NCBI GenBank assembly: GCA_964586355.1 | Contig: CAZPGO010000053.1 | Location: forward strand, 1-5,127 | Length of the DNA: 5,127 bases | Source of the DNA: an uncultured archaeon | Lineage (GTDB): Archaea > Iainarchaeota > Iainarchaeia > Iainarchaeales > CSSED10-239 | Direction: 5' to 3' | Shown here: positions 1 to 5,127 of the stretch, in pieces | How the letters are laid out: each line of letters opens with the position of its first letter | How positions within the stretch are numbered: the stretch's first letter is position 1 | Notes under the pieces: model-generated | The model's input: only the letters and a program-made list of their open reading frames with translations | Told to the model about the DNA's origin: nothing | Database searches by the model: none | Position numbers and translations under genes: made by a program

Positions 1-61
1 TTTTCTTTTATACTTCTTATATTTTAAAAACTTTAATCATCAGAATTATAAATGTGAATAT

Positions 62-101
62 ATGTGTTTAAAAATAAAAAAGGTCAAATCTCAATAGAAT
101 T
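62..101 (+). repeat. Conserved 5' block, copy A (dispersed repeat with 3358..3397; 37/40 identical, first 22 nt identical)
   Basis: atgtgtttaaaaataaaaaaggTcaaAtCtcaatagaatt versus atgtgtttaaaaataaaaaaggAcaaGtAtcaatagaatt, compared base by base. Confidence 0.9.
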
Positions 102-162
102 TTTATTAGTCTTATCAATATTGGTTGTAGGTGGTGTTTTATTTGGTGTTTATTATCTACAA
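64..162 (+). other. Class III (prepilin-type) signal peptide plus hydrophobic pilin N-terminal helix; predicted prepilin-peptidase cleavage between Gly7 (82..84) and Gln8 (85..87)
   Basis: Short basic leader MFKNKK, Lys at -2, Gly at -1, Gln +1, Ser +3, Glu +5, then about 25 mostly hydrophobic residues. This is the pattern described for PibD/EppA-type archaeal prepilin peptidase substrates. Confidence 0.75.
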
Positions 163-3100
163 TCAATTGGAAAAAATAGGCAAGAAGATGTAAGTACTGA
201 TGTTTTAGATAATCTTATTACAGATTTTGCATCAGATGTTAATATACAAGAATTACCCACAAACCCGACTGGTTTTTTTAGTATTTCTTTAAATTTAGAT
301 CCTAATGGACCCACAGAAGAAAATAATGATTTTAATATAATTGTAAGAGCTTTTAATGATACAGAACATACATCTTCTAGAATTACTTCTGTTTATATAT
401 ATGATAATGGATTTAATTCAACAACAGAGTGTAGTTTGAATAGCTTACCAAATCAAAGTGTTTATAACAATTTAGATTATTATTTTGTTACTGATCTTTA
501 TGATTTAACTTTTAACTGTGATAATTCAGGAACATATAATGTTCTTGTGTTTGCTGATATTGCTGATGATCCTAGTTATAATGATTCCGAATTAATTTCT
601 AAAATAATTGTTCCTCCTATTGTTCCTCCTCCACTTTATCAAACATTTAGTATTGATTTAGAATTAGATCCTGATAGTTCTAGTCAAGTGGGTGCTGATT
701 TTGGAGTAGTTGTTTCTGTTGATGAGAACACAATTTATAATGATCCAGTAATTGATCAGATTTCTATTTTAAAAGAGGGTGTGGCTACCCGTGATTGTAG
801 TTTGATTGGTGTTTTTTTTTTAGGTGGTCAATCAACATATAATGTAAATCTTCCTTTTGATAGTGATACCAATAAGCACACATTGTTTTTTAGATGTAGT
901 CATGAAGAGACAACTTCTCAAACATATTCTATTTCTGTTGATGCAGAAATAGATAGTAATAATGATTTTACTGATAATGCTTTAATACAAAAAAATATTG
1001 ATCCATTAGATACTTCTGGTTGTGTGTCTTTTACAGGAGATATTATTTTTGATCTGCCTTCTGGTGTTTATAATAATTCTCAAAATTTGACTTTATCTTA
1101 TAGAAATGATCCCGATTGTGTGGGTCAAATTTATTATACCATTGATGGCACTACCCCAACAACTTCTTCTGCTGAGTTTGTTGGTTCTCCAATTGTTTTA
1201 AATGGAAATGAAACAAATGAAATAGAAACAAATGTAAAAGTAAAAGTATTTGGAACTGATTCCTCAAATCAAGAGATCTCAACAAATGTTAGTGAGAGTG
1301 TATATAGTTTTAAAGTAGCTAATCCAGTTTTCAGTCCTTCAGGAAACACACACACTAATCCCTTTCCATCTGCTGTTAGTGTGTCTTTGTCTAATAATAC
1401 TACTGGTGCAGAAATGTGGTGGGTTTTAAATCAATTTATAGATCCTTTGATCACACCTGAACCACCAAGCACAGGTCAAATTTATTCAACACCTATACTT
1501 ATTAATTCTACAAAACAATTAAACGTTAAAGCTTATAAAAATAATTATATCCCAAGTAATGTTATAAGAAAAACCTATCATATAGGAGAAGAAGAAGAAG
1601 ATATTTGTCCACCAATGGGTGGTTTAGAGATATGTTCTAGTATTTCTGGAGAAGGTACTGAAAATAATCCTTTTTTAATAAATTCTGCTGAAGAGCTTTA
1701 TTGTGTTAGAGAACACCAGCTTCGTATGAGTTTAGGTATTTGGTACCAATTAAGAGATGCTAATGCGATTAATATTTTTAATTATGAAGATGGTTGGACT
1801 CCTACTTATGATGGTTCTGGAAATTTAATTGCTTGGGCGAATACTTCTGAAGAGGTTCTTTCTGCGGGACGCGGTCAAACCCCATCTGCTTGGTGGGAAA
1901 TTGGTGCTCCACTGTGTCATTATAAATTAACTCATGATATTGATCTGAGCCATGATTTATTATCATCAGAAGATTGGTATTCTGAGGAGCAAGGATTTCC
2001 AAGCATTGGTGGTTTATATACTACTAATGACGCAGGTGGTATTCATGGCTGTAGTGTTTTAGATTTTAGTTTTTATGGTTTTTTTGATGGTGATCATCAC
2101 ACCATATCTAATTTATATATGAATAGATCTGATGTTATGGTGGAAGAGAATATAATCCAGTATGGTTGTTTTGGTCCTTCTGGTTTAGAAACTTATGATT
2201 TCTTTTTACATCAGGGTTTTCCTCTTTTTGGTAGTTTACCTTCAAGGGGGGGTACTTCTACTGTAATTAGACAATTGAATTTAGATAATCCAAAACTTGT
2301 TTTTATTGATCAGGGAGTGACAGATAAAGGGATTATGACTGAGTATATTAGGCCAAACACATATATTTTTAGAATAAATATTAATGATGCAAATATTTTT
2401 GTAGATTGTTCTGATTGTGATATTGATAATTTAGGGGGTGTTGCTGGGGTAAATAATGGAGGAGAAATAAAGGATGTTTCCGTTAGTGGTAATTTTATCA
2501 TTAATGCAGATTCTTCATATGTTGGTGGCATTGTCGGTATTAATAACGCCTTAGACCTAGATGTTGTGGGTAAGATAATAGAGTCTGAATTTAATGGTTA
2601 TATAAATCTTATTCCAAAAGAAGAATCACAACCCTATTATCATGGCGGTATAGCTGGCTATAATTCTGGTGAAATACTAAAATCTAAATTTATAGGTGAT
2701 TTAAATTCATCTGGAGCTTATGTTGGTGGTATTGCTGGTGAAAATAAAAACTTAATTTCTTTAAGTTTTGTAGATGCAAATATTTCTGGAGCTTCAGAGG
2801 TTGGGGGGATTGCTGGTAGTCAATTTTGTAACCAGAATTATAATCCAAAGATTGAAAATTCTTATGCAAAAGTAACCTTTTATTTCTCTGAAAATAATTC
2901 CTTGCCATCTTATTTACATCCAAAATTTGGGGGTCTATCAAGTAAATTTGATCGTGATTATATTCCATCACCTCCTGTCCCTCATCCTAACAGTATAGTT
3001 AATTCTTATGCTGTTGCAAATTTTGAAAACATAGACATTTCTATTGAACATGTTAGATATTGTGGTGGTGTTTCTAATCCTAATTATTCTAGATGGTCGA

Positions 3101-3315
3101 ATATTTCAAATTCTTTTTTTAGTTCTACTGCATGTGAAAATTGTTCTCCTTACTATCTTTATGATGAAACCACAGGAAATTATGGTGTGTTTGCTTTAAC
3201 AGATGAAGACTTGAAAGTTAAAGAATTAAATTTTTGGAATTTTAATACAATTTGGGATAGAAACGATGAGATAAATGAGGGCTATCCTTATTTAAGAAGC
3301 AACGTTCCTAATTAA
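64..3315 (+). CDS. Modular archaeal type IV pilin-like surface adhesin, 1083 aa (class III signal peptide + 2 internal beta-sandwich-like repeats + 2 CHB_HEX_C-like domains + GLUG-repeat domain)
   Basis: Uninterrupted 3252-nt ORF in an AT-rich sequence where off-frame stops are frequent. In-frame TGA at 55..57, so GTG at 64 is the first usable start; TAA stop at 3313..3315. The N-terminus MFKNKKGQISIEFLLVLSILVVGGVLFGVYYLQ matches the QxSxE class III signal peptide (DUF361/PF04021). Downstream motifs are recognisable by eye (IYYTIDGTTPTTSS, GEGTENNPFLINSAEEL, FYGFFDGDHHTISNL, repeated VGGIAG, C-terminal WNFNTIW...GYPYL). Confidence 0.9.
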   Translation: MFKNKKGQISIEFLLVLSILVVGGVLFGVYYLQSIGKNRQEDVSTDVLDNLITDFASDVNIQELPTNPTGFFSISLNLDPNGPTEENNDFNIIVRAFNDTEHTSSRITSVYIYDNGFNSTTECSLNSLPNQSVYNNLDYYFVTDLYDLTFNCDNSGTYNVLVFADIADDPSYNDSELISKIIVPPIVPPPLYQTFSIDLELDPDSSSQVGADFGVVVSVDENTIYNDPVIDQISILKEGVATRDCSLIGVFFLGGQSTYNVNLPFDSDTNKHTLFFRCSHEETTSQTYSISVDAEIDSNNDFTDNALIQKNIDPLDTSGCVSFTGDIIFDLPSGVYNNSQNLTLSYRNDPDCVGQIYYTIDGTTPTTSSAEFVGSPIVLNGNETNEIETNVKVKVFGTDSSNQEISTNVSESVYSFKVANPVFSPSGNTHTNPFPSAVSVSLSNNTTGAEMWWVLNQFIDPLITPEPPSTGQIYSTPILINSTKQLNVKAYKNNYIPSNVIRKTYHIGEEEEDICPPMGGLEICSSISGEGTENNPFLINSAEELYCVREHQLRMSLGIWYQLRDANAINIFNYEDGWTPTYDGSGNLIAWANTSEEVLSAGRGQTPSAWWEIGAPLCHYKLTHDIDLSHDLLSSEDWYSEEQGFPSIGGLYTTNDAGGIHGCSVLDFSFYGFFDGDHHTISNLYMNRSDVMVEENIIQYGCFGPSGLETYDFFLHQGFPLFGSLPSRGGTSTVIRQLNLDNPKLVFIDQGVTDKGIMTEYIRPNTYIFRININDANIFVDCSDCDIDNLGGVAGVNNGGEIKDVSVSGNFIINADSSYVGGIVGINNALDLDVVGKIIESEFNGYINLIPKEESQPYYHGGIAGYNSGEILKSKFIGDLNSSGAYVGGIAGENKNLISLSFVDANISGASEVGGIAGSQFCNQNYNPKIENSYAKVTFYFSENNSLPSYLHPKFGGLSSKFDRDYIPSPPVPHPNSIVNSYAVANFENIDISIEHVRYCGGVSNPNYSRWSNISNSFFSSTACENCSPYYLYDETTGNYGVFALTDEDLKVKELNFWNFNTIWDRNDEINEGYPYLRSNVPN
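274..606 (+). other. Internal repeat module R1 (probable beta-sandwich/Ig-like domain with a Cys pair)
   Basis: FFSISLNLDPNGPTEENNDF...CSLNSL...QSVYNNL...LTFNC...TYNVLVFADI...ELISKII aligns by eye, with only small indels, to R2: TFSIDLELDPDSSSQVGADF...CSLIGV...QSTYNVNL...LFFRC...TYSISVDAEI...ALIQKNI. Both cysteines are conserved. The fold assignment is inference. Confidence 0.6.
607..630 (+). repeat. Perfect 2 x 12-bp tandem duplication ATTGTTCCTCCT encoding the IVPP-IVPP(P) linker between R1 and R2
   Basis: 607..618 and 619..630 are identical and in frame (ATT GTT CCT CCT twice, followed by CCA). Confidence 0.95.
643..999 (+). other. Internal repeat module R2 (diverged copy of R1)
   Basis: See R1. 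Shared FSI-L-LDP, DF, CSL, QS-YN, F-C, TY and LI-K-I positions. Confidence 0.6.
812..821 (+). repeat. T10 homopolymer inside the adhesin CDS (GTT TTT TTT TTA = VFFL)
   Basis: Direct reading of 811..822. It lies in a segment of R2 that is 4 residues longer than the equivalent part of R1. Confidence 0.95.
1027..1317 (+). other. CHB_HEX_C-like (chitobiase/beta-hexosaminidase C-terminal-type, Fn3-associated) domain, copy 1
   Basis: SFTGDIIFDLPSGVYNNSQNLTLSY...GQIYYTIDGTTPTTSSAEFVGSPIVL...VKVKVFG...SVYSFKV matches the remembered PF13290/PF13287 pattern (F-PxGxY...v-Ls...IyYTtDGstPtxsS..Y.gPI.l...vka.a...S.v....Y). Confidence 0.6.
1318..1584 (+). other. CHB_HEX_C-like domain, copy 2
   Basis: ANPVFSPSGNTHTNPFPSAVSVSLSNNTTGAEMWW...GQIYSTPILINSTKQLNVKAYKNNYIPSNVIRKTYHI follows the same consensus. 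It is followed by a (GAA)4 GAT acidic linker EEEED at 1588..1602. Confidence 0.7.
2246..2252 (+). repeat. G7 homopolymer inside the adhesin CDS (AGG GGG GGT = RGG)
   Basis: Direct reading of ttcaagggggggtact. It is the longest G run in an otherwise G-poor window. Confidence 0.95.
2431..2817 (+). repeat. Array of five GLUG motifs at protein level (LGGVAG, VGGIVG, HGGIAG, VGGIAG, VGGIAG) spaced 26-40 residues apart
   Basis: Motifs at 2431..2448, 2521..2538, 2641..2658, 2722..2739 and 2800..2817. Each is followed by N-x-G-x-I and alternating hydrophobic residues, as in PF07581 (GLUG). A degenerate sixth copy FGGLSS lies at 2926..2943. Confidence 0.75.
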
Positions 3316-3357
3316 TATTATTAAAAAATTAATTTAATAAAAAATAAAAAAGATTAA

Positions 3358-3397
3358 ATGTGTTTAAAAATAAAAAAGGACAAGTATCAATAGAATT
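3358..3397 (+). repeat. Conserved 5' block, copy B (pairs with 62..101)
   Basis: See copy A. Confidence 0.9.
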
Positions 3398-3458
3398 GAT
3401 AATGGTTTTAGCCGTGTTAATTATAGTTGCAACTTTATTAGGTATTTACTACATACAA
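3360..3458 (+). other. Class III signal peptide plus hydrophobic pilin helix of the short pilin; predicted cleavage Gly7|Gln8 (3378..3380 | 3381..3383)
   Basis: KKG|QVSIE: Lys -2, Gly -1, Gln +1, Ser +3, Glu +5, followed by a hydrophobic stretch. Confidence 0.75.
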
Positions 3459-3605
3459 ACATTTAATTCAAAAAAAGCAATAGGTTCAGGAGACGAATCT
3501 GGATCAATTAATGATACTGTTAGTGATTATGATGATTATTTTAATAACCCATCAGTTCCTTTAATTTTTTTTAAAAAATATTATTTTAGATCTAATTACC
3601 TTTAA
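3360..3605 (+). CDS. Short archaeal type IV pilin-like protein, 81 aa (class III signal peptide; mature about 74 aa)
   Basis: GTG start at 3360 is the first possible start after the in-frame TAA at 3345..3347; TAA stop at 3603..3605. MFKNKKGQVSIELIMVLAVLIIVATLLGIYYIQ is paralogous to the N-terminus of the 64..3315 product (identical leader MFKNKKGQ; GVYYLQS versus GIYYIQT). Same strand, 44 nt downstream of gene 1. Confidence 0.8.
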   Translation: MFKNKKGQVSIELIMVLAVLIIVATLLGIYYIQTFNSKKAIGSGDESGSINDTVSDYDDYFNNPSVPLIFFKKYYFRSNYL

Positions 3606-3661: not shown

Positions 3662-3724
3662 ATGAACAAACTACATATTTTATTAATTTTTTTACTACTT
3701 TTCAACTCTACTTTTCTTTATGCC
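3662..3724 (+). other. Sec-type signal peptide of the metalloprotease (MNKLHILLIFLLLFNSTFLYA | NTSE)
   Basis: One basic residue, a 15-residue hydrophobic core, and a small residue at -1 (Ala). No Cys, so no lipobox. No QxSxE, so it is not a class III signal. Confidence 0.65.
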
Positions 3725-5127
3725 AATACTTCTGAATCCTTATCTTTAAACAATCATCCAGATGTATTTTATTTACCAGAAGCAGAGTTAGCAAAAGACG
3801 GTTTTACTCTAGAAAGTTATCTTGATTCTCTAAAAGAATCTGTGCCAAAAAACCGAGACTCCTTATCCAGTGTAGACAATATTTGGGGCACTTCTCCTTT
3901 AAGTGGTACTGTTCATATTCCTGTTTTGTTAGTTCAGTTTCCAGATAACCAGTCAAACACATCCTCTTTAGATCTTTCCTTAGCTTTCAATTCTGAAAAT
4001 TATTTAAACGGTTCTGGCATTAGTGTTAGCAAATATTTTAATAAGCAATCCTATGGCGATTTCAATTTAGTTTTTGATATTTATGGTTGGCAAACCCTTT
4101 CTCAACCATATTCTTATTACTCTCAAGATAGTTACAATGAATTTTTATTAACCTTAGACAGCATGTCTGCTTTTAACTCTATAGTAAATTTTTCCGATTA
4201 TGATTCAGATAATGATGGTCGTATTGATGGAGTTGTTTTAGTATATGCCGGAAGGGGTATACAAGGAAGTGGAGGAATTTGGCCACAAGCCAGAATCTTT
4301 AACGGTTATACAAATTATTCTTATGATGGTAAATATATTGGCAATGTTGCCTATGTTCCAGAACGCGGTCTTAGTTCCACTGATTCTTTTAGAATTTCTA
4401 TTGCTACTCATGAATTTAGTCATGTTTTGGGTTTACCAGATCTTTATGCTAACTCCACAAGTGGTCAGTTAAATCCAGGTCCTATGAACGGCATGAGTAT
4501 GATGATTTTTCAGGATAGTTATTGTTCCCAAAAGCCCATAAATTTAGATGTTTGGTCTAGATATTTTTTTGGTTGGGTTGATCCAATAACCTTAACTGTA
4601 GATTCTCCAAAAGAGATTAGTTTGCGAAGTATTAATGATTATCCTGATTCTGTTATTTTAAGAAATAATAATATGGGTCCCAGAGAATTTTTTATAATTG
4701 AAAATCGTTATAGAAATCATAACGACCCCAACAACCTAGACAACTGTATGTTTTTAAATGGCTCAACCAACTATGGTGGTTTTGCTATTTATCACATAGA
4801 TGAAAATAAAATAGAATTTGATTACCCAATCAATGCTATTAATTGGGATCGTGATAACAACTATTACTCAGATGTTACTTGGCCAGGAATAACTTTTGAA
4901 GAAAATTTTGTAAATAGTTTAAATACTAATCCTCTGATTTTTCAAAACGATCTTTATTTTAACGAAATAATTTCTGGGTGTAATACTTTTGCTTACTTTG
5001 ATGAAACCCCAAGAATCTGTTCTGATCTTGGTCAAATTTTTGATCGCACTACTTCCACATATACAGGTGTTTCTAATCCTTTTATTAGTTTTCGTGCTAT
5101 TAACTCTAATCAATACACTATGACTGC
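3662..5127 (+). CDS. Secreted M6-family (immune inhibitor A-like) zinc metalloprotease, 3'-truncated by the window edge (488 complete codons, no stop)
   Basis: Not in the supplied ORF track. Codon-by-codon hand translation from ATG 3662 (first ATG after the in-frame TAA at 3620..3622) shows no stop through 5125. M6-domain landmarks appear in order: VHIPVLLVQFPD, SKYFNKQSYGDFNLVFDIYGW, DSDNDGRIDGVVLVYAG...GGIWPQA, HEFSHVLGLPDLY, LDVWSRYFFGWVDP, REFFIIENRY...GGFAIYHIDEN. Confidence 0.88.
   Translation, partial: MNKLHILLIFLLLFNSTFLYANTSESLSLNNHPDVFYLPEAELAKDGFTLESYLDSLKESVPKNRDSLSSVDNIWGTSPLSGTVHIPVLLVQFPDNQSNTSSLDLSLAFNSENYLNGSGISVSKYFNKQSYGDFNLVFDIYGWQTLSQPYSYYSQDSYNEFLLTLDSMSAFNSIVNFSDYDSDNDGRIDGVVLVYAGRGIQGSGGIWPQARIFNGYTNYSYDGKYIGNVAYVPERGLSSTDSFRISIATHEFSHVLGLPDLYANSTSGQLNPGPMNGMSMMIFQDSYCSQKPINLDVWSRYFFGWVDPITLTVDSPKEISLRSINDYPDSVILRNNNMGPREFFIIENRYRNHNDPNNLDNCMFLNGSTNYGGFAIYHIDENKIEFDYPINAINWDRDNNYYSDVTWPGITFEENFVNSLNTNPLIFQNDLYFNEIISGCNTFAYFDETPRICSDLGQIFDRTTSTYTGVSNPFISFRAINSNQYTMT
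4409..4441 (+). other. Zinc-binding and catalytic motif HEFSHVLGLPD (HExxHxxGxxD)
   Basis: CAT GAA TTT AGT CAT GTT TTG GGT TTA CCA GAT read directly. HExxH followed by GLPD-x-Y is the signature I associate with the M6 / TIGR03296 metalloprotease domain. Confidence 0.85.

What the first reader, a model, noticed from the sequence alone, without database searches (positions are those of the whole stretch)
64..3315. Giant modular pilin: archaeal class III signal peptide fused to about 1,050 aa of adhesin modules
Seen: the ORF opens MFKNKKG-QISIEFLLVLSILVVGGVLFGVYYLQ (basic leader, Gly -1, Gln +1, Ser +3, Glu +5, long hydrophobic helix). I see no other hydrophobic anchor or C-terminal sorting signal (it ends ...GYPYLRSNVPN), so the pilin-type N-terminus is the only visible attachment device. 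Established: the QxSxE core defines the DUF361/PF04021 class III signal peptides of archaeal type IV pilin-like proteins processed by PibD/EppA-type prepilin peptidases. Ordinary archaeal pilins are typically on the order of 100-200 aa. There are precedents for cargo on a pilin stem: Sulfolobus bindosome sugar-binding proteins, bacterial modular pilins such as Streptococcus sanguinis PilB/PilC, and the tip minor pilins TcpB/CofB. To my knowledge a >1000-aa archaeal pilin combining Ig-like, CHB_HEX_C-like and GLUG modules is not a characterised class. Inference: a pilus-displayed adhesin, probably at the tip or in low abundance, for attachment to a polymer, surface or partner cell.
Basis: partly seen in the sequence, partly recalled or inferred. 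Interest (0 to 1): 0.75.

Follow-up and report, generated by a model that had tools for sequence, protein, structure and literature searches.

The report
Giant archaeal pilin-type surface adhesin
The gene is real and encodes a 119-kDa surface protein whose only anchor is a pilin-type N-terminus, and it belongs to a recurrent, uncharacterised family of strain-variable adhesins in small uncultured archaea that usually sits next to a secreted protease.

Summary
ORF 64..3315 (GTG start, 1083 aa) begins MFKNKKG|QISIE followed by the protein's only hydrophobic helix. After it come two orphan all-beta modules, two CHB_HEX_C Ig-like modules and a 570-aa GLUG beta-helix whose fold matches the N-terminal domain of IgA1 proteases. 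It has no catalytic motif.

The class III signal scores just under Pfam's cut-off. Support comes from elsewhere. The same roughly 60-aa module heads the adjacent 81-aa helix-only pilin (3360..3605). A 150-nt promoter-plus-signal duplication links the two genes. The K-G-Q...E core is invariant in six relatives, and ATG, GTG and TTG starts alternate at the same codon.

The architecture is not unique. At least ten relatives occur on low-GC contigs, several with archaeal marker genes, usually next to an M6 metalloprotease as here. Bacteria hold prepilin-plus-GLUG analogues.

Between near-identical flanks the gene is replaced by a 35%-identical allele, and its dN/dS is 0.62 against 0.11-0.21 for its neighbours.

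No pilus ATPase, platform or peptidase gene lies in any locus examined, so display on a pilus versus a helix anchor in the membrane is unresolved.

Verdict: a new variant of a known kind (modular pilin / class III-signal surface protein), of moderate interest.

The parts
19..168 (+). First copy of a 150-nt direct repeat. It covers 45 nt upstream of the start codon plus the first 105 nt (leader and hydrophobic helix) of the giant gene.
   Evidence: the repeat finder family D1: 19-168 versus 3315-3464, 71% identity. Upstream and start regions compared.
64..3315 (+). Giant ORF: 1083 aa, GTG start, TAA stop. The mature protein is about 118.7 kDa with pI 4.2.
   Evidence: The same protein exists as an NCBI record on a 5127-bp contig (P0090).
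64..84 (+). Short basic leader MFKNKKG, ending in Gly at -1. The predicted prepilin-peptidase cut lies between Gly7 and Gln8.
   Evidence: K6, G7, Q8 and E12 are invariant in six family N-termini. The start codon at this position is GTG, ATG or TTG in relatives. PF04021 matches aa 5-31.
85..183 (+). Alpha-1 helix (aa 8-40). It carries QISIE with Glu at +5 followed by the only hydrophobic segment of the protein.
   Evidence: Hydropathy. AlphaFold2 predicts a helix at residues 11-40, with mean pLDDT 88-89 over residues 11-30.
196..237 (+). Short second helix (aa 45-58, VLDNLITDF...) that completes a roughly 60-aa helix-only 'pilin module' shared with stand-alone short pilins.
   Evidence: Alignments A1/A3. 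AlphaFold2 predicts a helix at 45-58 but with low confidence.
271..633 (+). Module A (aa ~70-190): an orphan all-beta, Ig-like module with two Cys residues.
   Evidence: 32% identical to module B, E 2e-10. No Pfam family. Homologous modules occur in the class III proteins of L006 and L026. All-beta in the model, at low confidence.
664..1008 (+). Module B (aa ~201-315): a paralogue of module A, following a VPPIVPPP linker.
   Evidence: 39% identical to L026 residues 78-200.
1057..1269 (+). CHB_HEX_C_1 / Fn3_assoc Ig-like module 1 (aa 332-402).
   Evidence: PF13290 at 49-51 bits, cut-off 22.
1318..1578 (+). CHB_HEX_C-like module 2 (aa ~419-505), more divergent than module 1.
   Evidence: PF13290 at 20.5 bits and PF13287 at 22.1 bits, just under their cut-offs, when scanned alone. 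It aligns to the CHB_HEX_C modules of P0122.
1606..3312 (+). C-terminal GLUG / Peptidase_M26_N-like right-handed beta-helix (aa 515-1083). The GLUG motif lies at nt 2428-2493 and there are five GG[IV][AV]G turns. No HExxH motif is present.
   Evidence: PF07581 at 29.1 bits. 592 hits in an exhaustive phmmer search. AlphaFold2 pTM 0.77, with a confident beta-helix core. Foldseek: 3n6z E 1.8e-6, 6xja E 4.3e-4. Motif scan.
3315..3464 (+). Second copy of the 150-nt repeat: the upstream region plus the signal and helix of ORF2.
3360..3605 (+). ORF2: an 81-aa helix-only class III pilin (MFKNKKG|QVSIEL...). It is the candidate main filament subunit or partner of the giant.
   Evidence: PF04021 at 22.2 bits. 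TIGR04205 E 1.8e-6 over aa 6-36. Weak match to the Geobacter short pilin 9egp, E 0.016. 93% nt identity to the window's ORF2 in each of four other contigs, dN/dS 0.21 (window vs L011).
3662..5127 (+). 5' part (488 aa) of a secreted M6-family metalloprotease (Sec-type signal, HEFSHVLGLPD). It is a conserved neighbour of this adhesin family.
   Evidence: TIGR03296 at 126 bits, cut-off 110.8. The pairing with class III GLUG giants recurs in L016, L019 (twice) and L020, and both gene types also occur, not adjacent, on L024.

Best explanation
The gene encodes a modular minor pilin, that is, an adhesin delivered and held by a type IV pilin-type N-terminus, in an uncultured low-GC archaeon (probably DPANN-type).

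Proposed mechanism:
- The short basic leader MFKNKKG is removed by an EppA/PibD-type class III signal peptidase, leaving Gln8 as the new N-terminus.
- The roughly 60-aa helix-only module (hydrophobic alpha-1 with Glu+5, then a short second helix) docks with subunits carrying the same module. The prime candidate is the adjacent 81-aa pilin ORF2.
- The giant therefore sits at the tip of, or sparsely along, a thin Epd/Tad-like filament.
- Four Ig-like spacer modules hold out a 570-aa GLUG beta-helix, which is the ligand-binding head.
- The head is swapped or diversified between strains, which suggests it recognises a variable target such as a host or partner cell surface or a polymer.
- The neighbouring secreted M6 protease probably acts on the same target.

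Status of each step:
- Shown: the architecture, the shared N-terminal module, the beta-helix fold, the absence of a catalytic motif, the conserved protease neighbour and the strain-level variability.
- Inferred: cleavage of the leader, incorporation into a filament, the binding function, cooperation with the protease and the archaeal host.
For: N-terminus:
- G-1, Q+1, S+3 and E+5 are followed by the protein's only hydrophobic helix.
- PF04021 is the best or second-best Pfam hit, at 20.5-23.5 bits over the whole model, for all seven family N-termini.
- K-G-Q...E is invariant in six otherwise divergent proteins.
- ATG, GTG and TTG starts alternate at the same codon.
- QXSXE with Q at +1 is the EppA-substrate motif (PMC2910488).

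Shared stalk module:
- ORF2 is 81 aa. By hand count its first 33 residues are 19/33 identical to the giant's, and most other differences are conservative (sequences).
- A 150-nt repeat includes 45 nt of upstream DNA.
- Stand-alone versions of the module exist (P0241 and P0242, 84-99 aa).
- P0242 occupies the spot, next to the same KaiC-like ATPase, that the 1118-aa P0122 occupies elsewhere. KaiC-family ATPases are associated with archaeal type IV pilus loci (PMC4858521).

Cargo:
- CHB_HEX_C and GLUG Pfam hits.
- The beta-helix model matches 3n6z and the IgA1-protease N-terminal domain.
- No HExxH motif.

Surface-interaction signature:
- Allelic replacement of the gene between conserved flanks.
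- dN/dS of 0.62 against 0.11-0.21 for neighbours.

Archaeal context of relatives:
- ATP-dependent DNA ligase, archaeal-type ProRS, Trm5/TYW2 and an NCBI title reading 'MAG: archaeon'.
- A ribosomal-protein gene cluster starting with L3 and deoxyhypusine synthase.

Precedents:
- Bacterial modular pilins (PMC8179133).
- Large predicted adhesins or minor pilins in archaeal type IV pilus loci (PMC4858521; preprint 10.64898/2026.04.22.720090).
Against: - No pilus ATPase, platform or prepilin peptidase gene lies in the window, in its upstream extension, or in the related loci annotated here, which total a little over 100 kb.
- PF04021 stays below Pfam's cut-off.
- There is no recognisable globular pilin domain packed on alpha-1. 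The N-terminal model is confident only for the helix (mean pLDDT 46).
- In most related loci the giant is not accompanied by an ORF2-like short pilin.
- A 1,040-aa cargo may simply remain membrane-anchored.
- The taxonomic origin of this contig is inferred, not shown.
Confidence: 0.45

Rival explanations
1. The protein is a membrane-anchored surface adhesin. The class III signal serves only for export and as an anchor. The leader is cleaved, but the N-terminal helix stays in the cytoplasmic membrane or in a short pseudopilus or bindosome-like stub. The Ig-like stalk pushes the beta-helix head beyond the cell envelope, and no long pilus is involved.
For: - Class III signals on large non-pilin proteins, such as sugar-binding proteins and proteases, are well known in archaea, and no pilus has been seen for the bindosome (PMC2910488; preprint 10.64898/2026.04.22.720090).
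- No type IV pilus machinery lies next to any family member examined.
- Most relatives lack an adjacent short pilin.
- Many paralogues occur per locus, as in L019, L016 and L024, which looks more like a surface-protein repertoire than a pilus operon.
Against: - The helix-only module is shared with 81-99-aa proteins that have no cargo and are hard to explain except as filament subunits.
- Glu+5 and the G|Q site are invariant.
- The promoter and signal are co-duplicated with ORF2.
Confidence: 0.33
2. The N-terminus is an ordinary uncleaved signal-anchor (type II membrane protein) or a Sec signal. Its resemblance to class III signals is compositional.
For: - PF04021 falls below the gathering threshold.
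- The sequence is AT-rich and Lys/Ile-rich, which favours such N-termini by composition.
Against: - K-G-Q at -2/-1/+1 and Glu at +5 are invariant across six proteins that are only 30-41% identical to the giant over the N-terminal module.
- Seven of seven N-termini have PF04021 as their best or second-best Pfam hit, each covering the full model, at E of about 1e-4.
- Leaders are only 5-9 residues long and end in Gly, or in Ala in L019 and L024.
- No AxA-type cleavage site, lipobox or twin-arginine motif can be seen in the sequence.
Confidence: 0.1
3. The protein is an extracellular enzyme (a protease or polysaccharide-active beta-helix enzyme) and not an adhesin. The GLUG beta-helix or its unique insertions would carry a catalytic site, working together with the M6 protease.
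For: - Right-handed beta-helices include pectate lyases, glycosidases and tailspikes, which appear as weak Foldseek hits at E of 0.1 or above.
- GLUG domains occur in M26 IgA1 proteases.
- Two large insertions are modelled with low confidence and have unknown function.
Against: - The significant fold matches are only to the non-catalytic N-terminal domain of IgA1 proteases and to 3n6z.
- There is no HExxH motif and no catalytic Pfam or NCBIfam hit.
- Hits to enzymatic beta-helices are not significant.
Confidence: 0.07
4. The contig is bacterial (for example from a candidate-phyla-radiation or Elusimicrobia-type organism) and the N-terminus is a Flp/Tad-type prepilin signal processed by a TadV peptidase.
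For: - A 55-aa Flp-like protein, MKFKNKKGQASVEY, in an Elusimicrobium MAG matches residues 2-31 at 57% identity.
- M6 orthologues of 57-59% identity occur on 55%-GC bacterial contigs.
- Bacterial prepilin-plus-GLUG giants exist.
Against: - Every low-GC relative with informative neighbours is archaeal: DNA ligase, ProRS-C_1 and Trm5, the NCBI title 'archaeon', a ribosomal-protein gene cluster starting with L3, and deoxyhypusine synthase.
- The motif is QxSxE, not the Flp motif G|xxxxEY, and not the bacterial N_methyl motif found in P0113.
Confidence: 0.05

Closest known systems
EppA-processed DUF361/PF04021 pilins of Methanococcus maripaludis (Epd pili; archaeal type IV filament 'system 1')
   Same: Both have a short basic leader, cleavage after Gly with Gln at +1, a QxSxE core and a long hydrophobic helix. 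The main Epd pilin is helix-only, like ORF2, and system 1 is reported in some DPANN archaea (PMC2910488; preprint 10.64898/2026.04.22.720090).
   Different: Those pilins are small and lie in an operon with the peptidase, ATPase and platform genes. Here roughly 1,040 aa of cargo follow the module, and no machinery gene is nearby. The Pfam score is just under the cut-off. Position +9 is Val rather than the Leu of QXSXEXXXL.
Bacterial modular type IV pilins (Streptococcus sanguinis PilB with vWA and PilC with lectin; catalogue of about 1,200 proteins in 264 architectures, PMC8179133)
   Same: The design principle is the same: an N-terminal pilin module joined by a linker to a functional binding module and presented by the filament, probably at the tip.
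   Different: The bacterial proteins carry the N_methyl (IPR012902) motif and a full globular pilin module, usually with one cargo domain. The largest catalogued example is 860 aa. The protein here has an archaeal QxSxE signal, a helix-only module, five cargo modules and 1083 aa.
Sulfolobus bindosome sugar-binding proteins and other archaeal class III-signal non-pilin proteins (FlaFind set, PMC2910488)
   Same: In both cases a class III signal peptide is attached to a large functional extracellular protein, and processing by PibD-type peptidases is expected.
   Different: In those proteins the cargo is a solute-binding protein or an enzyme, whereas here it is an adhesin-like Ig-module stalk with a beta-helix head. 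The leader and motif subtype also differ.
N-terminal GLUG beta-helix domain of M26 IgA1 proteases (6xja, 7uvk) and BACOVA_03286 (3n6z)
   Same: The C-terminal 570 aa share this fold and the GLUG repeats. In IgA1 protease this domain is non-catalytic.
   Different: There is no M26 catalytic domain and no HExxH motif. The anchor is a pilin-type N-terminus. The helix carries two large lineage-specific insertions.
Uncharacterised metagenomic relatives: P0122 (1118 aa), the L016 giant (1151 aa), the L020 giant (904 aa), the two L019 giants (~910 aa) and L024 (875 aa); and the bacterial analogues P0113, P0102 and P0210
   Same: The archaeal relatives combine a class III N-terminus (with or without CHB_HEX_C modules) with a GLUG beta-helix ending in ...W..IW...N.GYPYL, and often sit next to an M6 protease. 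The bacterial analogues combine an N_methyl prepilin signal with GLUG repeats.
   Different: Similarity to the window protein is only 23-39% and confined to individual modules. The A/B modules are found only in L006 and L026. None of these proteins has been studied experimentally.

Membership tests
PF04021 Class_IIIsignal (DUF361-type archaeal class III signal peptide) | Short basic leader ending in Gly or Ala at -1 | tested here: met
   The leader is MFKNKKG (7 aa). Relatives have leaders of 5-9 aa ending in G or A.
PF04021 Class_IIIsignal (DUF361-type archaeal class III signal peptide) | QXSXEXXXL core with Gln at +1 (PMC2910488) | tested here: inconclusive
   Q+1, S+3 and E+5 are present. 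Position +9 is Val in both the giant and ORF2, and Ile in P0122, which are conservative replacements of Leu.
PF04021 Class_IIIsignal (DUF361-type archaeal class III signal peptide) | Score at or above Pfam's gathering cut-off (23.7 bits) | tested here: not met
   16.9 bits on the whole protein and 22.3 bits on aa 1-62, with E 1.3e-4 over the full model length. All seven family N-termini score 20.5-23.5 bits.
PF04021 Class_IIIsignal (DUF361-type archaeal class III signal peptide) | Cleavage by an EppA/PibD-type peptidase | not testable with these tools
   This requires co-expression or an N-terminal proteomics experiment.
Type IV pilin (subunit of a type IV filament) | Hydrophobic N-terminal alpha-1 helix with Glu at +5 | tested here: met
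   Hydropathy peak at aa 6-36 only. AlphaFold2 helix at residues 11-40, with mean pLDDT 88-89 over residues 11-30. E12 is invariant.
Type IV pilin (subunit of a type IV filament) | Globular beta domain packed on the C-terminal half of alpha-1 | tested here: inconclusive
   The model shows a second short helix and then separate all-beta modules, but pLDDT is below 50 there. Helix-only pilins such as Epd, Flp and Geobacter PilA-N lack this domain anyway.
Type IV pilin (subunit of a type IV filament) | Genome encodes an assembly ATPase, a platform protein and a prepilin peptidase | not testable with these tools
   The window is a whole 5127-bp contig. Exact-DNA scans of the genome, metagenome and viral collections found nothing longer. 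None of these genes lies in the related loci examined.
Type IV pilin (subunit of a type IV filament) | Physical incorporation into a filament | not testable with these tools
   This requires microscopy or biochemistry.
Modular pilin in the sense of Raynaud et al. 2021 (PMC8179133) | N-terminal pilin module that also exists on its own, fused by a linker to domains not specific to pilus biology | tested here: met
   The same module occurs alone in ORF2, P0241 and P0242. The linkers are followed by the CHB_HEX_C and GLUG modules.
Modular pilin in the sense of Raynaud et al. 2021 (PMC8179133) | IPR012902 / PF07963 N_methyl prepilin motif, the criterion used for that catalogue | tested here: not met
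   There is no PF07963 hit on the giant, whereas the bacterial analogue P0113 does hit it. The signal here is the archaeal type.
GLUG / Peptidase_M26_N-like beta-helix | GLUG motif above the Pfam cut-off, and a right-handed beta-helix fold like 3n6z and 6xja | tested here: met
   PF07581 at 23.5 and 29.1 bits, above the 20.5 cut-off. Foldseek E 1.8e-6 and 4.3e-4 with probability 1.0, although TM-scores are modest at 0.30-0.55.
M26 IgA1-specific metalloendopeptidase | Catalytic zinc-binding HExxH domain | tested here: not met
   No HExxH motif anywhere in the protein, and no Peptidase_M26_C or other catalytic hit.
TIGR04205 class III signal protein associated with archaeosortase D / PIP-CTERM | Full-length match at or above 65 bits to a small (~67-aa) protein | tested here: not met
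   21.6 bits, over the signal region only. There is no C-terminal hydrophobic sorting signal.

The most novel reading that the evidence does not exclude
These giant class III-signal proteins are the host- or partner-recognition organ of ultrasmall episymbiotic archaea. A minimal helix-only pilin module carries interchangeable beta-helix 'heads' at the tip of a thin Epd/Tad-like filament. The heads are exchanged as cassettes between strains and so set host range, and they work together with a co-encoded secreted M6 protease that opens the target's surface layer. A more speculative extension concerns the in-frame TAA codons found exactly in inter-module linkers of two relatives (L006 and L015). 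These could be leaky stops that set the ratio of short stalk protein to full adhesin.
Probability: 0.15. Interest if true: 0.8.

Novelty: new variant of a known kind. Interest (0 to 1): 0.5.

Why it matters
How DPANN-type archaea and other ultrasmall symbionts find and hold their partners is largely unknown. Pilin genes in these genomes are usually not annotated at all (PMC9563170, PMC6393860).

This locus yields a concrete, recurrent candidate with four useful properties:
- It has a recognisable rule: a helix-only class III module followed by an Ig-like stalk and a GLUG beta-helix head.
- It has a conserved partner gene, the M6 protease.
- Its head shows strain-level cassette replacement and elevated dN/dS, as expected for a specificity determinant.
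- Bacteria hold analogous proteins, which points to convergent use of the same design.

The rule can be used to mine MAGs for adhesin repertoires and to choose domains for binding assays. If the protein is only membrane-anchored, it is still a new class of archaeal surface adhesin, but the link to pili would fall away.

Tried and rejected
- **Exact 47-nt pattern searches.** Scans of GTDB genomes, JGI metagenomes and IMG/VR gave no hits, so the source genome could not be recovered.
- **Exact-protein look-ups.** Look-ups of the giant and of ORF2 found nothing on record. Only a 338-aa fragment, P0088, led to a contig (L001). That contig extends the window 1.1 kb upstream and then diverges, probably as a chimera.
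- **Full-length homologue search.** It returned only CHB_HEX_C hits covering about 17% of the protein. The N-terminal 325 aa found only itself.
- **Profile of six N-termini against 5.8 billion proteins.** Only two small pilins were returned. The word index is too coarse for such short modules, so no census of cargo types was possible.
- **GTDB scan with the N-terminal alignment.** The pattern was very narrow and gave two loci: the P0122 contig and a bacterial Flp-like pilin.
- **AlphaFold2 of aa 1-330.** Mean pLDDT was 46, usable only for the helix. No fold search was run on it.
- **PDB sequence search with the giant.** No meaningful hit was found.
- **Sigma-70 promoter and terminator scan.** Counts matched the shuffled expectation and were uninformative.
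- **Small circular element.** This was considered because the gene upstream of the giant (in L001) resembles the C-terminus of the M6 protease. It was rejected for three reasons. Identity to the L027 M6 C-terminus is 75%, against 88% for the N-terminal part. L027 has different genes downstream of M6. Tandem giant-M6-giant-M6 arrays exist in L019.
- **Alternative genetic code.** This was considered because of the in-frame stops in L006 and L015. It was rejected for the window because the 1083-codon ORF is intact under table 11 and ends in TAA, the same codon as the internal stops in L006 and L015.
- **C-terminal ...GYPYLRSNVPN as a sorting signal.** Rejected because the same motif closes an internal module in P0122.

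Full report
**1. The observation**

The window holds an uninterrupted ORF at 64..3315 on the + strand, with a GTG start and 1083 codons. A Kyte-Doolittle scan with 19-residue windows exceeds 1.5 only for windows starting at residues 6-18, so there is a single hydrophobic segment.

| Family | Score | Cut-off |
|---|---|---|
| PF13290 CHB_HEX_C_1 | 51.1 bits | 22 |
| PF13287 Fn3_assoc | 43 bits | 23 |
| PF07581 Glug | 23.5 bits (29.1 on the C-terminal part alone) | 20.5 |
| PF04021 Class_IIIsignal | 16.9 bits whole protein; 22.3 bits, E 1.3e-4, on aa 1-62 | 23.7 |

The one caveat is that the class III hit sits just under Pfam's threshold.

**2. Is the N-terminus a genuine class III signal?**

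Four independent lines say yes.

- **Shared module with the next gene.** ORF2 (3360..3605, 81 aa) starts MFKNKKG-QVSIELIMVLAVLIIVATLLGIYYIQ. By hand count it is 19/33 identical to the giant, and most other differences are conservative. Nothing else in the two proteins is alike.
- **DNA-level duplication.** A 150-nt direct repeat (19-168 versus 3315-3464, 71% identity) covers 45 nt of upstream DNA plus the first 35 codons of both genes.
- **Invariant core in relatives.** In six proteins with this module from five different contigs, K-2, G-1, Q+1 and E+5 are invariant, while identity to the giant over the module is 30-41%. Each of seven family N-termini has PF04021 as its best or second-best Pfam hit at 20.5-23.5 bits, six of them over the full 27-position model.
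- **Start-codon turnover.** The start codon at the homologous position is GTG, ATG or TTG in different relatives. This fixes the start and the 5-9-residue basic leader.

The QXSXE(XXXL) motif with Gln at +1 is the signature of substrates of the Methanococcus prepilin peptidase EppA (PMC2910488). Here position +9 is Val. No lipobox, twin-arginine motif or AxA-type site can be seen in the sequence.

**3. Anatomy of the protein**

| Residues | Feature | Evidence |
|---|---|---|
| 1-7 | Leader | |
| 8-40 | Alpha-1 helix (AlphaFold2 helix 11-40; mean pLDDT 88-89 over residues 11-30) | |
| 45-58 | Short second helix, low confidence | |
| ~70-190 and ~201-315 | Two paralogous all-beta modules, 32% identical to each other (E 2e-10), each with two Cys; no Pfam family | |
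| 332-402 and ~419-505 | Two CHB_HEX_C Ig-like modules | |
| 509-513 | Acidic linker | |
| 515-1083 | GLUG domain | |

The two all-beta modules have relatives only in other class III proteins, in L006 and L026.

The GLUG domain was modelled with a nine-sequence alignment. The result had pTM 0.77 and mean pLDDT 68, with a confident right-handed beta-helix core. Foldseek against the PDB gave two significant matches:
- 3n6z (BACOVA_03286, 'putative IgA1 protease'), E 1.8e-6.
- The Streptococcus pneumoniae IgA1 protease chain 6xja, E 4.3e-4. From the Pfam family Peptidase_M26_N, which matches relatives of this protein, and from my own knowledge of that structure, I take the aligned part to be its N-terminal, non-catalytic domain.

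Enzymatic beta-helices appear only at non-significant E-values. The protein has no HExxH motif and no catalytic family hit.

The conserved W..IW...N.GYPYL ending is the cap of the module. It also closes an internal module in P0122, so it is not a sorting signal. The mature protein is 118.7 kDa with pI 4.2.

**4. Surroundings**

Downstream of ORF2 lies the 5' part of a secreted M6-family metalloprotease: TIGR03296 at 126 bits, a Sec-type signal and HEFSHVLGLPD.

A JGI contig that overlaps the window's first 1058 bases (99.9% identical; aligned part L001 1108-2164) extends it 1.1 kb upstream. The gene there ends with CHB_HEX_C and DUF5018 modules and is 75% identical to the C-terminus of the complete M6 protease of a close relative, L027. 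The giant is therefore flanked by M6-type genes on both sides.

**5. Relatives and how common the architecture is**

The window is a complete 5127-bp NCBI contig. Exact-DNA scans found no longer version. Full-length and N-terminal searches found no close homologue.

An exhaustive phmmer search with the C-terminal domain gave 592 hits, mostly giant bacterial GLUG-repeat proteins. Two groups among them matter here.

- **P0122.** This 1118-aa protein starts MFKNKKNKG-QVSIEIL..., followed by three CHB_HEX_C modules and two GLUG modules. It lies on a 29%-GC contig titled 'MAG: archaeon', with ATP-dependent DNA ligase, archaeal-type ProRS, Trm5/TYW2, LonB and ScpAB. A second class III protein of 443 aa follows it.
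- **Bacterial analogues.** P0113, P0102 and P0210 have typical prepilin N-termini, and P0113 scores on the N_methyl family. P0102 and P0210 also score on Glug, and all three were recovered as hits to the GLUG domain.

Scanning metagenomes with the M6 fragment returned 69 loci. On the low-GC ones the pairing 'class III GLUG giant followed by M6 protease' recurs:
- L016: an 1151-aa giant with four CHB_HEX_C modules plus GLUG; its M6 is 60% identical to the window's.
- L020: a 904-aa giant.
- L019: two tandem giant-M6 units.
- L024 carries both gene types, but about 4 kb and four unrelated genes apart: class III proteins of 548 and 875 aa, the larger one with GLUG.
- L026: M6 followed by a 476-aa class III protein carrying A/B-type modules, then a ribosomal-protein gene cluster (L3 confirmed by Pfam, the rest read from the N-termini).
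- L015: another relative lies beside a deoxyhypusine synthase gene.

The architecture is thus a recurrent, uncharacterised family in low-GC archaea of DPANN type. Archaeal origin of the window itself is an inference from these relatives.

M6 orthologues of 57-59% identity also occur on 55%-GC bacterial contigs without class III giants.

**6. Strain-level variation**

Four other contigs, from four samples, carry ORF2 at 93% nt identity and the M6 gene at 88-93% nt identity. The 3' end of the gene upstream of ORF2 differs among them:
- In L011 it is 86.7% nt and 77-78% aa identical to the window.
- In L010, L012 and L013 (the P0093 allele) it cannot be aligned at the nucleotide level. It is only 35% aa identical in L012 and L013, and 48% over the 52 residues present in L010, although it is the same kind of module with the same ending.
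- In L023 a different, C-terminally anchored protein occupies the position and ORF2 is absent.

Nei-Gojobori dN/dS between the window and L011 is 0.62 for the giant's head, against 0.21 for ORF2 and 0.11-0.13 for M6. This is a single pairwise estimate. It fits a surface-exposed head evolving under relaxed or diversifying selection and exchanged by recombination.

**7. What could not be shown**

No prepilin peptidase, pilus ATPase or platform gene lies in the window, in its extension, or in any related locus annotated here.

The only pilus-linked neighbour is a single-domain KaiC-like ATPase. It lies divergent from P0122, and at the same position beside the 84-aa short pilin P0242. KaiC-family ATPases are known associates of archaeal type IV pilus loci (PMC4858521). 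Stand-alone pilin genes are common in archaea (PMC4858521), so the absence of machinery genes weakens the pilus reading without refuting it.

**8. Mechanism**

The best-supported reading is a modular minor pilin:
- The leader is removed by a class III peptidase.
- A helix-only module docks with ORF2-type subunits.
- Four Ig-like spacer modules hold out a variable beta-helix head.
- The M6 protease is a likely functional partner.

The main rival is the same protein held in the membrane, or in a bindosome-like stub, without a long filament. The tools available cannot separate these two readings. An uncleaved anchor, an enzyme function and a bacterial origin are minor rivals.

**9. Comparison with known systems and novelty**

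The design matches bacterial modular pilins (PMC8179133) and the archaeal practice of putting class III signals on large functional proteins (PMC2910488). Large predicted adhesins or minor pilins are already described in archaeal pilus loci (PMC4858521).

Four things are new here:
- the specific combination of a helix-only QxSxE module, orphan beta modules, CHB_HEX_C modules and a GLUG beta-helix, in a protein of more than 1000 aa;
- its recurrence in DPANN-type contigs;
- the conserved M6 protease partner;
- cassette-like replacement of the head between strains.

I rate it a new variant of a known kind, with interest 0.5.

Noticed in passing
window 3662-5127; L016, L019, L020, L024, L026, L027: The M6 metalloprotease downstream is a conserved neighbour of class III GLUG giants. 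The pair recurs at 54-60% M6 identity, twice in tandem in L019. The complete protease is about 900 aa and carries three CHB_HEX_C modules, a DUF5018 domain and a Ser/Thr-rich tail. The gene upstream of the giant (L001 3-1097) is a second M6-type C-terminus, 75% identical to that of L027.
   Followed up: partly
window 2323-3315 versus L010, L011, L012, L013, L023: The flanks (ORF2 and M6) are 88-93% identical in nucleotides across samples. The giant's 3' end, by contrast, is either 87% identical (L011), replaced by an allele only 35% identical in protein (P0093 type), or replaced by an unrelated C-terminally anchored protein with ORF2 absent (L023). dN/dS is 0.62 for the head against 0.11-0.21 for the neighbours.
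   Followed up: yes
L006 nt 684-686; L015 nt 153-155: Two relatives carry an in-frame TAA exactly in an inter-module linker. The frame continues into the next module, and the downstream part has no start codon or signal of its own. These could be pseudogenes, sequencing errors or leaky stops. Both come from single-run Logan assemblies.
   Followed up: partly
window 3540-3605 versus P0241 (L010-L013): The last ~12 residues of ORF2 differ between strains (...FFKKYYFRSNYL versus ...FFKKEIILGKFPLTN), directly after a T/A homopolymer tract (tttttttt aaaaaa). The difference could come from length variation in that tract, though no nucleotide comparison was made. In those contigs an upstream ATG makes gene callers extend ORF2 to 99 aa, but the TTG at the homologous start position argues for the short leader.
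   Followed up: partly
L002 9167-9877 (-) and L014 748-1458 (-): A 236-aa single-domain KaiC-like ATPase lies divergently upstream of the 1118-aa class III giant P0122. At the same position in another assembly it lies upstream of the 84-aa short pilin P0242. The syntenic slot therefore holds either a bare pilin module or a module with cargo.
   Followed up: partly
L027 1937-2404 and 2413-2751: In a close relative (M6 88% identical), two more small class III-signal genes of 155 and 112 aa follow the protease. The window ends before this region, so the source organism may carry them too.
   Followed up: no
L017, L018, L022 (55% GC): M6 orthologues of 57-59% identity sit on contigs I read as bacterial from the N-termini of the neighbouring genes (UvrB-, NDK- and PurL-like; not checked against any family library), with no class III giants nearby. 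This suggests transfer of the protease gene between bacteria and these archaea.
   Followed up: no
L016 705-3473 and 3510-6248: Two ~920-aa proteins upstream of the L016 giant share the N-terminus MNSKAQMEVIILIG... (Ala at -1, Gln at +1, Glu at +3). One has six GLUG repeats and the other a CHB_HEX_C module. This may be a further variant of the signal. A DUF285 protein precedes them, so the region is a surface-protein island.
   Followed up: no
L008 ~9995-10159: A 55-aa Flp/Tad-like prepilin (MKFKNKKGQASVEY...) in an Elusimicrobium MAG matches residues 2-31 of the giant at 57% identity. This illustrates how close this archaeal signal subtype is to bacterial Flp pilins.
   Followed up: no
L001 ~2165-3119: The JGI contig that overlaps the window's first 1058 bases stops matching it after window position 1058 and truncates the giant at 338 aa. 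It is probably an assembly chimera.
   Followed up: partly
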